A stretch of 64,000 nucleotides of DNA from a virus (taxonomy: Duplodnaviria > Caudoviricetes). Position numbers and translations under genes: made by a program. Below the pieces are notes generated by a model. The model had not been told where the DNA came from. It saw only the letters and a list, made by a program, of their open reading frames with translations, and ran no database searches. This document shows positions 21,167 through 57,263 of the stretch, piece after piece; the first letter of the stretch is position 1, and every line of letters starts with the position of its first letter. The stretch is taken from the IMG/VR virus record IMGVR_UViG_3300033074_001499, positions 20,315 to 84,314 of that record. One strand, given 5' to 3'.

Positions 21167-22249
21167 TTACCCTCTTTTAAATTTACGAATGAATTCTGAT
21201 TTTGTGTAAGCGTTCACCACTTTAACATCACCCATCAATTGATATTGAGATTTATACAATTGATGTTCTGGGGGAATGTCTTTGCATTCAAGCTCAAGAA
21301 TACAATCATTTTCATTATAGATGGCAGAAAGAACATCGTGTCCATAACATGCATAAACACCTCTCTTACCACCGTTCACAAATTCACCAACCACATATTT
21401 AAAATTATTGTCATATGAAGATTGATAAATCCCTTCTTGATTGGTCCTTTCCACATTCTTAAAGAAAATATTGTCAGAAACAATCCGATCATCTTTCTCT
21501 TTACCATATAGAGCAGAGATATCATAGAGTTTATCAAAAGTGAAGTTGTTTTCTGGATAATCTACGGCAGATGCTTCAATTTCATGTAGAATTGAAATAG
21601 CTTTATCTAGTGAAAACTCTTCAGATTCTGGGAAAATCTTATCGAGATTCAAGCCATACATTCCTCCAACATGGTCTTTAAGCTTTTCCCAACTATCAAT
21701 TCCAACTCCAGCAACAGTGAGCATAATTTTAAGAAATTGGGGTTTAGAGATTTTATAGCCTTTATCTGTGTATTTTTGAACACGAATAGCAGAGATAATG
21801 GGATAAGCTGTTTTCTCATTAAATTCTAGATATTTCTGACTGTTGTGCTTCATGAAATCATCATGGAATACAAACTGTTCCGTTGAAAACTCAAAAGCTC
21901 CCATATTACAGGTGAAATCAAAGTCATTGAAAATGTCTTCTACAGTTGGGAAGAATTTGTACACAATTACTTGTACATCCTGTCCAGTTCCATTGTCGCG
22001 GAAAAGAACAGATTTATTTGTAATATTATGCCCAAACAGAGAATATTCGTATTCATGCTCTAGAAGTTCAATGAGCAATTGGAAATCACTAACACTTCGG
22101 AAATAAACATCTACATCATTTACTTCACGATTGCAAAAAAGAGAAGTGATAGCCCCACCTGCAATAATAGCATTAGATTCTTTCAAAAGATCATAAACGT
22201 TATTGGAAATAAGTTTTTTCAGTTTAATTAGTTCTGATTTATGTTGCAT
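21167..22249 (-). CDS. Nucleotidyltransferase (class II, poly(A) polymerase/CCA-adding head-like)
   Basis: IAGGAI...NDVDVYF and DFDFTCN motifs. Confidence 0.75.
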   Translation of the reverse strand: MQHKSELIKLKKLISNNVYDLLKESNAIIAGGAITSLFCNREVNDVDVYFRSVSDFQLLIELLEHEYEYSLFGHNITNKSVLFRDNGTGQDVQVIVYKFFPTVEDIFNDFDFTCNMGAFEFSTEQFVFHDDFMKHNSQKYLEFNEKTAYPIISAIRVQKYTDKGYKISKPQFLKIMLTVAGVGIDSWEKLKDHVGGMYGLNLDKIFPESEEFSLDKAISILHEIEASAVDYPENNFTFDKLYDISALYGKEKDDRIVSDNIFFKNVERTNQEGIYQSSYDNNFKYVVGEFVNGGKRGVYACYGHDVLSAIYNENDCILELECKDIPPEHQLYKSQYQLMGDVKVVNAYTKSEFIRKFKRG

Positions 22250-27813: not shown

Positions 27814-28049
27814 TGTTCACCGTCTTTTTACTTACATTTGCCGTTGCCTTGAGTGTTATTGCAACTGGTCTTATTTCAGTCTTAGTTTCGTCTTTTATTT
27901 TAGAAATGAAAATTAATTGGATTGTAAAAATCATCCTAACTGCTCTCGTGTTCTCTTTTAGTGTTTCAATTAGCACTGTTACTGCAATTTCAGTTGCTGA
28001 TTATTTCTTTGAAGCACCAGAAAAACAGCTTGACAACAAAGAAAAATAG
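27813..28049 (+). CDS. Hypothetical membrane protein
   Basis: Two hydrophobic segments. Confidence 0.7.
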   Translation: MFTVFLLTFAVALSVIATGLISVLVSSFILEMKINWIVKIILTALVFSFSVSISTVTAISVADYFFEAPEKQLDNKEK

Positions 28050-28057
28050 TGTAAAAT
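28030..28057 (+). promoter_or_regulatory. Sigma70 promoter for tRNA-Arg-like RNA
   Basis: TTGACA-N16-TAAAAT with TG. Confidence 0.7.
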
Positions 28058-28075: not shown

Positions 28076-28155
28076 GCGGGTATATCGGCTCTGCCTTCTA
28101 AGCAGTTGAAACCGTAACTGGACACATGTAGATTCGAGTTCTACTGCCCGCGCCA
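28076..28155 (+). tRNA. Atypical tRNA-Arg(UCU)-like RNA with no canonical D-arm
   Basis: Acceptor GCGGGTA/TGCCCGC, G73, CCA; T-arm GTAGA-TTCGAGT-TCTAC; anticodon hairpin CTGC-CTTCTAA-GCAG. Confidence 0.75.
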
Positions 28156-28200
28156 AACCTAACCCACTTAATTGTGGGTTTCCATTTTATAAGGAAAAAC

Positions 28201-28383
28201 ATGAATTGCTTGAATTGTGGTAAAGAAAGCTCTAATCCTAAATTTTGTAGTAGGTCTTGTTCAGCTTCTTTTAATAATAAAATAGCCCCTAAAAGAAAAA
28301 GGGTTTGTAAAATCAAGGGCTGTCAAGAAATTGTTAAAAGTTACAGGTGGGAAGAGGTTGACAAACGTAAAAGTACACACTAA
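28201..28383 (+). pseudogene. Truncated homing-endonuclease-like zinc finger ORF
   Basis: CLNCGKE...KFCSRSCSA N-terminal module, no nuclease domain. Confidence 0.55.
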
Positions 28384-28386
28384 AAT
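28358..28386 (+). promoter_or_regulatory. Sigma70 promoter for tRNA(CAU)
   Basis: TTGACA-N17-TAAAAT. Confidence 0.8.
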
Positions 28387-28417
28387 GTATTTGTATTAAC
28401 TCATAGGAACCAAATTA

Positions 28418-28492
28418 GGGCCTATAGCTTAAAGTAAAGCAGCCTGGCTCATAACCGGGAGGACTTAGGAGCGTTACCTATTGGGCCCACCA
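28418..28492 (+). tRNA. tRNA(CAU): Ile2 favoured over Met; atypical T-loop
   Basis: GGGCCTA/TGGGCCC-A-CCA; CCTGG-CTCATAA-CCGGG; C4:G69 and C5:G68 as in TilS substrates; T-loop AGCGTTA. Confidence 0.8.
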
Positions 28493-36019: not shown

Positions 36020-36113
36020 GAGGTTGTAGCTTAATTTAAAAGCAGCGAGGAACACAGAGGCTTCATAAAAGCCAATGCATCCGTCAATGCAGGTGCAAAT
36101 CCTGCCGACCTCA
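36020..36113 (+). ncRNA. tRNA-like RNA with enlarged central domain, no CCA
   Basis: Acceptor GAGGTTG/CGACCTC, D-stem GCTT/AAGC, T-arm GCAGG-TGCAAAT-CCTGC. Confidence 0.7.
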
Positions 36114-56436: not shown

Positions 56437-56511
56437 GCTCGGTTAGCTGGAAGGTCTAGCAATCCTCTTGTAAGGGAAAGATGGTATAGGGTTCGATTCC
56501 CCCACTGAGCA
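56437..56511 (+). tRNA. tRNA-Thr(UGU), possibly degenerate, no encoded CCA
   Basis: GCTCGGT/ACTGAGC; TCCT-CTTGTAA-GGGA; T-loop TTCGATT but only 3 clean T-stem pairs. Confidence 0.65.
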
Positions 56512-56646: not shown

Positions 56647-57198
56647 ATGCAAAAAGAAATCTGGAAAGATGTTGTTGGTTACGAAGAATACTTCATGGTG
56701 AGTAGCACAGGTAGGGTTTGGTCTAAGAGAACTGAAAAATTGTTAGCTCCTACACAGTTAAAAAGTGGCTATCTTGTTATAAATTCTAAGATAGGTGGTA
56801 GAAATGGCAAAGCTGTTTCTCTAAGAATTCATAGATTGGTTGCAGAGGCTTTTTTATCTGAGCCAGAAAAATCAATAAGTCAAGCTTGTTCAGAAACCCT
56901 CTACGGTAAAGTTCCTGTTAACCACAAAGACGGGGACAAAAAGAATAATTGTGTAGAAAATTTAGAATGGTGCACTTATTCTTATAATACTCGCCATGCT
57001 ATACAAAACGGCTTTCTTGTACACAAGAAGGGTTTTGAAAACAGTTTATCCAAACTGACAGAAGAACAGGTTTTGGAAATAAAAAGTTGTTATGTAGCCA
57101 ATCATAAAATTTTTGGCACCAGAGCTTTAGCAAAGAAATACAATGTGCATCACACGACAATAAGTAGAATTGTCAGAAACAATGCTCCGCGTTCATAG
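56647..57198 (+). CDS. NUMOD4-HNH homing endonuclease
   Basis: EIWKDVVGYE..FMVSSTGRV (NUMOD4); HRLVAEAF...VNHKDGDKKNN..NLEW; start 56647. Confidence 0.9.
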   Translation: MQKEIWKDVVGYEEYFMVSSTGRVWSKRTEKLLAPTQLKSGYLVINSKIGGRNGKAVSLRIHRLVAEAFLSEPEKSISQACSETLYGKVPVNHKDGDKKNNCVENLEWCTYSYNTRHAIQNGFLVHKKGFENSLSKLTEEQVLEIKSCYVANHKIFGTRALAKKYNVHHTTISRIVRNNAPRS

Positions 57199-57263
57199 TT
57201 TAATTGGCAAAACCCTAGACTTCCAATCTAGTGTTCCCAGATCGTGGCTGGGTGGACGCTCCA
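57189..57263 (+). tRNA. tRNA-Gly(UCC), atypical T-loop
   Basis: GCGTTCA/TGGACGC-T-CCA; CTAGA-CTTCCAA-TCTAG; CCCAG-ATCGTGG-CTGGG. Confidence 0.88.

What the first reader, a model, noticed from the sequence alone, without database searches (positions are those of the whole stretch)
28076..28155. Rearranged tRNA-Arg(UCU): anticodon hairpin sits where the D-arm should be
Seen: perfect acceptor stem, discriminator, CCA and T-arm, with its own promoter. After U8-A9 there is no D-arm. CGG (28086-88) can pair with CCG (28112-14) and encloses the anticodon hairpin CTGC-CTTCTAA-GCAG. A D-loop-like string AACTGGACA (28116-24, with the GG normally at 18-19) comes after the anticodon arm. The arm order looks permuted. 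Inference: either an alternative fold that still decodes AGA (frequent in this AT-rich phage) or a decoy for anticodon nucleases or synthetases.
Basis: partly seen in the sequence, partly recalled or inferred. Interest (0 to 1): 0.8.

Follow-up and report, generated by a model that had tools for sequence, protein, structure and literature searches.

The report
Phage arginine tRNA with permuted core
This 80-base phage gene is very probably a working arginine tRNA (anticodon UCU) whose D-arm halves lie on either side of the anticodon arm; at least 141 phage DNA stretches share this non-cloverleaf layout, tRNA finders miss it, and I found it in no paper.

Summary
Window 28076-28155 has a 7-bp acceptor stem, U8-A9, discriminator G, encoded CCA and a T arm, but no D hairpin. 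A short helix (CGG 28086-88 with CCG 28112-14) encloses the anticodon hairpin, and a D-loop-like AACUGGACACAU follows it. It has its own promoter and terminator. ARAGORN and the Rfam tRNA model do not call it.

It is not a decayed copy. Pattern scans and a covariance model found 155 instances (134 distinct sequences) in 141 phage DNA stretches, mostly inside tRNA clusters. They include cultured Streptomyces, Vibrio and crAss-like phages. In 185,579 prokaryote genomes one pattern scan found a single hit, apparently a mis-binned jumbo phage.

All helices covary, including the enclosing helix. The 15-48 tertiary pair covaries (A-U or G-C). Anticodons are only Arg, Ile, CAU and Val. The base after GG (position 20) is A in 36 of 37 Arg members and U in 95 of 97 others, matching the bacterial ArgRS determinant A20. 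Tandem copies always carry different anticodons.

Best reading: a functional tRNA-Arg(UCU) for AGA, with a circularly permuted D/anticodon domain. A pure decoy is unlikely. Charging, decoding and 3D fold are untested. This scan had already noted the same family on other genomes.

The parts
28030..28057 (+). Sigma-70-type promoter: TTGACA (28030-35), 16-nt spacer, TAAAAT (28052-57)
   Evidence: 11 of 12 matches
28076..28082 (+). Acceptor stem 5' strand GCGGGUA (positions 1-7)
   Evidence: all 7 pairs covary in the family
28083..28084 (+). U8-A9, invariant in all 123 members tabulated
   Evidence: UA in 123 of 123
28085..28088 (+). 5' strand of the enclosing helix H2 (U + CGG). By strand polarity it takes the place of D-stem positions 22-25.
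   Evidence: the three inner pairs are paired in essentially all members, with CG/GC/UA/AU swaps. The outer pair is U-U.
28089..28089 (+). Single C between H2 and the anticodon stem (equivalent of position 26)
   Evidence: C in 112 of 123
28090..28106 (+). Anticodon arm UCUGC-CUUCUAA-GCAGU: 4 pairs plus U27-U43; loop has C32, U33, anticodon UCU at 28097-28099, A37, A38
   Evidence: The stem covaries in members found independently of it.
28107..28111 (+). Linker UGAAA (NGAAA in most members; 12 nt in the Vibrio phages)
28112..28115 (+). 3' strand of H2 (CCG + U), in the place of D-stem positions 10-13
28116..28127 (+). D-loop-like segment AACUGGACACAU: A14 (28116), A15 (28117), G18-G19 (28120-21), A20 (28122), U48 (28127)
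   Evidence: A20 tracks Arg anticodons (36 of 37 against 2 of 97). Positions 15 and 48 covary: A-U 112, G-C 17.
28128..28144 (+). T arm GUAGA-UUCGAGU-UCUAC. The A53-U61 pair here is unusual; most members have G53-C61.
   Evidence: all 5 pairs covary
28145..28155 (+). Acceptor stem 3' strand UGCCCGC, discriminator G (28152), encoded CCA (28153-55)
28161..28190 (+). Intrinsic terminator: hairpin AACCCAC-UUAAUU-GUGGGUU, then a U-rich tail

Best explanation
Window 28076-28155 encodes a functional elongator tRNA-Arg(UCU) that reads AGA (and probably AGG). Its D/anticodon domain is circularly permuted relative to the cloverleaf.

The acceptor stem, T arm, anticodon arm, U8, a D-loop-like A14-R15-Y-Y-G18-G19-A20 string and U48 are all present, but joined in a different order. 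After U8-A9 the chain enters the D-stem strand that normally is 22-25. It runs through position 26 into the anticodon arm and returns through an NGAAA linker into the strand that normally is 10-13. Only then does it form the D loop, which leads straight into the T stem.

Inferred consequences:
- The D-like helix still stacks on the anticodon stem.
- The GG still docks on the T loop.
- The L shape and the ArgRS determinants (A20, C35, U36, G73) are kept.
- The RNA is made from its own promoter, trimmed by RNase P and 3' exonucleases to the encoded CCA, charged by the host ArgRS and used on the ribosome for the phage's frequent AGA codons.

Shown here: the sequence anatomy, the secondary structure by covariation, the identity-element correlations and the phage-wide distribution. 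Inferred: the 3D fold, processing, charging and decoding.
For: 1. Anatomy, promoter and terminator are as stated.

2. It belongs to a family. Covariance model R1 scores the window at 91.4 bits, other members at 39.8-97 bits (all but two at 52 or more) and canonical tRNAs at 29 bits or less. There are 155 instances, 134 distinct, in 141 phage DNA stretches.

3. Covariation supports the fold.
- Set A1 (27 sequences; the search pattern left H2 free): H2 is paired in every comparable cell, with CG/GC/UA/AU swaps, and 0 of 500 shuffles reach the score.
- RNAalifold predicts the same fold on its own.
- Set A3 (91 distinct sequences, found without constraining H2, the anticodon stem or the acceptor stem): 89.6% of cells paired against 58% when shuffled, and all helices covary.
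- The single-sequence minimum-energy alternative fold is not conserved.

4. The tertiary core is kept. U8-A9 is invariant in all 123 members tabulated. The 15-48 pair is A-U in 112, G-C in 17 and other in 5 members (Fisher p 1.6e-17).

5. Identity rules are kept.
- Anticodons are only UCU, CCU, UCG, ACG (Arg), GAU and UAU (Ile), CAU, and UAC (Val).
- Position 20 is A in 36 of 37 Arg members and U in 95 of 97 others (Fisher p 4.5e-29).
- The discriminator is G, A or U for Arg and A for 95 of 96 Ile, CAU and Val members.
- These match the bacterial rules for ArgRS (A20, C35, U/G36, A/G/U73) and for Ile, Met and Val (A73), as tabulated in PMC9976931.

6. It behaves like a decoder gene.
- 110 of 155 instances lie within 500 nt of a canonical tRNA.
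- Tandem copies always carry different anticodons. L034, for example, has UCU, UCG and CCU.
- Only 14 of 155 have a canonical tRNA with the same anticodon in the held stretch.
- In L031 and L026, ARAGORN calls no canonical Arg(UCU) tRNA in the held stretch, which holds other tRNAs.

7. In this phage no other Arg tRNA is found, and AGA is 31% of Arg codons (14.7 per 1000).
Against: - No expression, processing, aminoacylation or decoding data exist for any member.
- The 3D fold is inferred from connectivity and conserved positions only.
- The proposed secondary structure is not the nearest-neighbour minimum: -20.6 against -24.9 kcal/mol for the window, and a median of 3 kcal/mol above the minimum across the family.
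- The window's T stem has A53-U61 where nearly all tRNAs have G53-C61.
- The Fisher tests ignore shared ancestry, so the p-values are overstated.
- The search patterns fixed parts of the D-like segment and the T loop, so the apparent limit to Arg, Ile, Met and Val may be partly an ascertainment effect.
Confidence: 0.8

Rival explanations
1. A tRNA mimic that is not used in translation. It would act as a decoy or sponge that draws host anticodon nucleases, other tRNA-targeting defences or synthetases away from real tRNAs.
For: It has a tRNA-like shape with an intact anticodon loop. The family is confined to phages: one pattern scan of 185,579 prokaryote genomes gave a single hit, apparently a mis-binned jumbo phage. 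The unusual core could serve to escape or trap host enzymes. No expression or charging data exclude this reading.
Against: - A decoy would not need the ArgRS determinant A20 to switch to U exactly when the anticodon switches to Ile, Met or Val, nor discriminators that follow identity rules.
- Tandem copies never repeat an anticodon, and in the held stretches of some large tRNA clusters no canonical tRNA with the same anticodon is called.
- The commonest anticodons (UAU, UCU) read AUA and AGA, codons that from general knowledge are often rare in bacterial hosts.
- An encoded CCA and acceptor/T arms of the standard 7/5 length fit charging and EF-Tu binding.
Confidence: 0.1
2. A working tRNA whose permuted core was selected mainly as counter-defence. 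It decodes normally, but host anticodon nucleases or tRNA-modifying and tRNA-degrading defence enzymes that read the D-arm or variable-loop face fail to recognise it. This refines the best explanation rather than replacing it.
For: The family is confined to phages. It occurs in phages of three host phyla. In 14 of 155 instances it sits alongside a canonical tRNA with the same anticodon in the held stretch.
Against: No defence system is linked to it here, and no nuclease specific for Arg, Ile, Met or Val tRNAs was tested. The pattern is equally explained by a single origin followed by horizontal spread.
Confidence: 0.25
3. A decayed or rearranged tRNA pseudogene, or a canonical tRNA that was simply misread.
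For: tRNA finders do not call it. The window's T stem has an unusual A53-U61 pair.
Against: There are 134 distinct sequences with the same layout and compensatory changes in every helix. It has its own strong promoter and terminator. The Rfam tRNA model gives no match even at E<=10.
Confidence: 0.02

Closest known systems
Canonical bacterial and phage elongator tRNA-Arg(UCU) (Rfam RF00005), for example E. coli argU
   Same: 7-bp acceptor stem, 5-bp T stem with a UUCRANY loop, anticodon loop CUUCUAA, U8, a D-loop string A14-R15-Y-Y-G18-G19-A20, the R15-Y48 pair, discriminator G and CCA. The bacterial ArgRS determinants A20, C35, U36 and A/G73 are all present.
   Different: There is no D hairpin between A9 and position 26. 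The two D-stem strands flank the anticodon arm, and the D loop leads directly into the T stem. There is no ordinary variable loop; an NGAAA linker lies after the anticodon stem instead. The Rfam model and ARAGORN do not match.
D-armless mitochondrial tRNAs, for example animal mt tRNA-Ser(AGY) and Ascaris mt tRNA-Ser(UCU) (review PMC7609411)
   Same: No D hairpin after position 9, and the anticodon arm is effectively lengthened.
   Different: The mitochondrial forms are shortened and have lost the conserved D-loop/T-loop elbow (per PMC7609411 and, for the absent G18-G19, my own knowledge). This RNA is full length (77 nt plus CCA). It keeps U8, A14, R15-Y48, G18-G19 and a canonical T loop, and it is encoded by phages of bacteria.
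Circularly permuted tRNA genes of Cyanidioschyzon merolae, and split tRNAs of Nanoarchaeum (from my own knowledge)
   Same: The parts of a tRNA are encoded in a non-standard order.
   Different: In those cases the permutation is at gene level and is undone by processing, so the mature tRNA is a normal cloverleaf. Here the 5' and 3' ends are the normal acceptor ends, and the permutation is internal to the mature RNA.
allo-tRNAs and (8/4) tRNAs from bacteria and phages (Mukai et al. 2017, PMC5389517)
   Same: Non-canonical tRNAs found by mining genomes and metagenomes, some of them in phage tRNA clusters.
   Different: Those keep the cloverleaf arm order and change the acceptor/T stem lengths (8/4 or 9/3) and the V arm. 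This family keeps 7/5 and changes the connectivity of the core.

Membership tests
Canonical cloverleaf tRNA (Rfam RF00005) | Scores above the family's gathering threshold (29 bits), or is called by a tRNA finder | tested here: not met
   No RF00005 match at 28076-28155 even at E<=10. ARAGORN gives no call. Only 4 of 155 family instances overlap any ARAGORN call, and those calls are 85-97 nt.
Canonical cloverleaf tRNA (Rfam RF00005) | D-arm hairpin (10-13 paired with 22-25, enclosing the D loop) between position 9 and position 26 | tested here: not met
   The strands that pair (28086-88 with 28112-14) enclose the anticodon arm, not the D loop.
Canonical cloverleaf tRNA (Rfam RF00005) | 7-bp acceptor stem, discriminator, 5-bp T stem, 7-nt T loop UUCRANY | tested here: met
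   All 12 pairs covary in the family.
Canonical cloverleaf tRNA (Rfam RF00005) | Anticodon arm with a 7-nt loop, U33 and a purine at 37 | tested here: met
   Loop CUUCUAA at 28095-28101. The family has Y32-U33 and A37 throughout.
Canonical cloverleaf tRNA (Rfam RF00005) | Core tertiary set: U8-A14, R15-Y48, G18-G19 with the T loop | tested here: inconclusive
   The residues are present and conserved, and 15-48 covaries (A-U 112, G-C 17). The contacts themselves were not shown.
Functional tRNA-Arg (bacterial ArgRS substrate) | Identity determinants A20, C35, U/G36 and A/G73 (PMC9976931) | tested here: met
   A at 28122, C35 and U36 within UCU (28097-99), and G at 28152. A20 tracks Arg anticodons across the family, 36 of 37 against 2 of 97.
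Functional tRNA-Arg (bacterial ArgRS substrate) | Is aminoacylated with arginine and decodes AGA | not testable with these tools
   91.4 bits, E 3e-22, model positions 1-77. The window sequence was part of the seed, but 107 matches in stretches retrieved after the model was built score 40-92 bits.
D-armless mitochondrial tRNA | Shortened tRNA that has lost the D loop and the G18-G19 elbow contacts | tested here: not met
   77 nt plus CCA, with a conserved AAYYGG segment and a canonical T loop.
Permuted tRNA gene (Cyanidioschyzon type) | The 3' half is encoded upstream of the 5' half, and the acceptor ends are created by processing of a circular intermediate | tested here: not met
   The acceptor 5' and 3' strands are at the two ends of the gene in normal order, followed by CCA and a terminator.

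The most novel reading that the evidence does not exclude
Phages carry a second, non-cloverleaf solution to the tRNA fold. The D/anticodon domain is circularly permuted, yet the RNA still forms the L shape, is charged by class Ia synthetases (Arg, Ile, Met, Val) and decodes. The rewired core would be kept because it makes the tRNA invisible to host tRNA-targeting defences, or independent of host core-modifying enzymes.
Probability: 0.25. Interest if true: 0.95.

Novelty: new variant of a known kind. Interest (0 to 1): 0.85.

Why it matters
The cloverleaf arm order is treated as universal for cytoplasmic tRNAs. If these RNAs are charged and used, one large phage family shows that the L-shaped adaptor can be built with a different chain connectivity. 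Three consequences follow.

- **Structure.** It gives structural biology a natural circular permutant of the tRNA core.
- **Annotation.** Phage genome annotation is missing many tRNA genes. 151 of 155 instances here are not called by ARAGORN, and in one GenBank record the gene is labelled with the wrong amino acid. The missed genes are mostly decoders of AUA and AGA.
- **Phage biology.** It raises the question of why only phages keep this form. Possible answers are escape from tRNA-targeting defences, or portability between hosts.

It could also offer a new scaffold for engineered tRNAs.

Tried and rejected
- **Near-identical phage relatives.** Megablast of 2.5 kb around the gene against the phage collection found nothing. 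The phage is only distantly related (45% terminase identity) to 95-100 kb Pseudomonas and Pectobacterium phages.
- **Canonical cloverleaf.** Rejected.
- **The minimum-energy fold of the single sequence.** Rejected. Its non-acceptor helices break in most relatives and show almost no compensatory change.
- **A small hairpin within the D-like segment (GUA...UAC).** Considered by eye and rejected, because it is not kept across members.
- **Pattern-scan false hits.** L027/L032 and L033 from the second scan are chance matches and were left out.
- **A weak model hit first parsed as anticodon UUC (L147 4235-4314).** It more likely has a one-base offset and reads UCU with A20. It is not evidence for a Glu member.
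- **Literature.** Eight full-text searches and two reviews of non-canonical tRNAs (PMC7609411, PMC5389517) gave no description of this layout.
- **One Pfam call failed** on wrong coordinates and was not repeated.

Full report
**What is in the window.** The window is bases 20315-84314 of an 84.3-kb IMG/VR virus record, about 36% G+C. It encodes DNA polymerase I, a primase-helicase, ribonucleotide reductase, terminase and portal. Its terminase is 45% identical to those of 95-100 kb Pseudomonas and Pectobacterium phages.

At 28076-28155 (+) the sequence reads, in order:
- GCGGGUA, the acceptor 5' strand;
- UA;
- U-CGG;
- C;
- UCUGC-CUUCUAA-GCAGU;
- UGAAA;
- CCG-U;
- AACUGGACACAU;
- GUAGA-UUCGAGU-UCUAC;
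- UGCCCGC;
- G;
- CCA.

A promoter lies upstream (TTGACA, 16-nt spacer, TAAAAT; 28030-28057; 11 of 12 matches). An intrinsic terminator follows at 28161-28180. The gene is therefore a free-standing transcription unit. ARAGORN and the Rfam tRNA model (the latter at E<=10) do not report it.

**It is a member of a large phage family.** A sensitive blastn of the gene against cultured phages hit unannotated gaps inside the tRNA clusters of unrelated phages:
- Streptomyces phages Stanimal and Yaboi;
- Vibrio phages K406 and F100;
- the crAss-like Kehishuvirus tikkala.

A covariance model, R1, was built from 27 sequences. Together they gave 155 instances, 134 of them distinct, in 141 DNA stretches. 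All but two members score 52-97 bits and the two most divergent score 39.8; canonical tRNAs in the same stretches score 29 bits or less. The window scores 91.4 bits and is the only copy in its genome.

One pattern scan of one genome from each of 185,579 prokaryote species gave a single hit. It is a 362,763-bp contig labelled as a Paceibacterota MAG, with the same length as the IMG/VR jumbo-phage contig behind L010. The sequence type searched for is therefore essentially confined to phages.

Annotation misses the family. ARAGORN overlaps only 4 of 155 instances, with calls of 85-97 nt. Of 37 Streptomyces phage records matched by one member, 35 leave the site unannotated. The two EGole records label it tRNA-Leu (codon UUA), although the anticodon loop reads CUGAUAA, that is GAU.

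**The secondary structure is supported by covariation.**
- *Set A1* (27 sequences; the search pattern left the enclosing helix free). The three inner pairs of helix H2 are paired wherever both sides carry a base, in CG, GC, UA and AU forms. All acceptor and T-stem pairs covary. No shuffle out of 500 reaches the observed score, and sliding the partners destroys the signal.
- *RNAalifold* finds the same four helices unaided.
- *Set A3* (91 distinct sequences). These were retrieved with a pattern that fixed only the linker, the D-like segment and the T loop. 89.6% of cells are paired, against 58% after shuffling. The anticodon stem also covaries at all five positions.
- *The alternative minimum-energy fold* of the window sequence is not conserved. 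The proposed fold does lie about 3 kcal/mol above the single-sequence minimum across the family, and 4.3 kcal/mol above it for the window. Nearest-neighbour models ignore tertiary contacts, so I count this as weak evidence against.

**The tRNA core elements are present in a new order.** U8-A9 is invariant in all 123 members tabulated. After the 3' strand of H2 comes A-R-Y-Y-G-G-N, the consensus of D-loop positions 14-20. The last base before the T stem pairs with position 15 by the usual rule: A-U in 112 members, G-C in 17 and other combinations in 5.

The 5' strand of H2 continues into the 5' strand of the anticodon stem through a single nucleotide. By polarity it must therefore occupy the place of D-stem strand 22-25, and the 3' strand of H2 the place of 10-13.

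The simplest description is a circular permutation of the D/anticodon domain:
- the old ends (10 and about 44-45, neighbours in the canonical fold) are joined by NGAAA;
- new ends are opened between 21 and 22;
- position 9 now joins 22;
- the D loop now runs into 48 and the T stem.

Duplication of that domain followed by loss of its outer parts would produce this order. This paragraph is inference from connectivity and from textbook tRNA geometry. No 3D model was made.

**Evidence that the RNAs are charged and decode.** Anticodons in the 134 distinct members are:

| Anticodon | Amino acid | Members |
|---|---|---|
| UAU | Ile | 64 |
| UCU | Arg | 24, plus one offset case |
| GAU | Ile | 21 |
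| CAU | Met or Ile | 10 |
| ACG | Arg | 8 |
| CCU | Arg | 3 |
| UCG | Arg | 2 |
| UAC | Val | 1 |

- *Position 20.* The base after GG is A in 36 of 37 Arg members and U in 95 of 97 others (Fisher p 4.5e-29, not corrected for ancestry).
- *Discriminator.* It is G, A or U in Arg members and A in 95 of 96 Ile, CAU and Val members.
- *Match to known rules.* These are the bacterial identity rules: A20, C35, U/G36 and A/G/U73 for ArgRS, and A73 for Ile, Met and Val (PMC9976931).
- *Quick identity switches.* The window (UCU) and L008 (CAU) share almost the same core sequence. They differ mainly at the anticodon, position 20 and the discriminator.
- *Tandem copies.* Thirteen stretches hold two or three members, and these never repeat an anticodon.
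- *Filling gaps.* In L031 and L026, ARAGORN calls no canonical Arg(UCU) tRNA in the held stretch, which holds other tRNAs.
- *Codon demand here.* In this window no other Arg tRNA is detected, and AGA is 31% of Arg codons.

All four amino acids are served by subclass Ia synthetases, for which the anticodon is a main determinant. That may reflect easy identity switching, a structural limit of the permuted core, or my search patterns. I cannot tell which.

**Verdict on function.** The most likely reading (about 0.8) is a working tRNA-Arg(UCU). A pure decoy (about 0.1) does not explain the identity-element correlations. A pseudogene is excluded by the conservation. Why phages keep this form is open. 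Escape from tRNA-targeting host defences is attractive but untested.

**Novelty.** Eight full-text searches and two reviews of non-canonical tRNAs found no description of this layout. Most subscription journals are not covered, so prior description cannot be excluded. Earlier notes of this same scan describe the same family on other genomes and reach the same reading. They are not independent evidence, and I re-derived the points above myself.

Noticed in passing
window 36020-36113 (+): A tRNA-shaped RNA (Rfam tRNA, 41 bits) with a normal acceptor stem, D arm and T arm. Its 'anticodon' arm is about 39 nt long and ends in a 5-nt loop, CAUAA, instead of a 7-nt anticodon loop. It folds well (z -3.3) and has no blastn match in cultured phages.
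   Followed up: partly
window 28358-28492 (+): A second stand-alone tRNA unit 260 nt downstream: promoter TTGACA/TAAAAT (28358-86), then a cloverleaf tRNA(CAU) at 28418-28489 with encoded CCA and an odd T loop, AGCGUUA. Rfam calls it (41 bits); ARAGORN does not.
   Followed up: partly
window 56437-56511 (+): A weak tRNA match (34.6 bits in the whole-genome search), probably tRNA-Thr(UGU). It lies just upstream of tRNA-Gly(UCC) at 57189-57263 and is not called by ARAGORN.
   Followed up: no
L150 595-671 (Streptomyces phage EGole, MK494112.1 75265-75341): A permuted-core family member whose anticodon loop is CUGAUAA (GAU, Ile). GenBank annotates it as tRNA-Leu recognising UUA. The same site is unannotated in the other 35 Streptomyces phage records matched.
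   Followed up: yes
L037 (JBAZIW010000001.1, 362,763 bp): A contig deposited as a Candidatus Paceibacterota MAG carries the family. It has exactly the length of the IMG/VR jumbo-phage contig behind L010, so it is probably a phage genome binned as a bacterium.
   Followed up: partly
window 28202-28384 (+): A short ORF right after the tRNA terminator. By eye it starts MNCLNCGKE... and has CxxC and C..C motifs, which suggests a small zinc-ribbon protein or a homing-endonuclease remnant. HNH endonuclease genes also sit next to the family member in the Vibrio phages.
   Followed up: no
window 21167-22249 (-): A 360-aa ORF with a weak nucleotidyltransferase match (phrog_1614), possibly a tRNA CCA-adding enzyme. 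In Streptomyces phage EGole a nucleotidyltransferase gene lies directly upstream of a family member.
   Followed up: no
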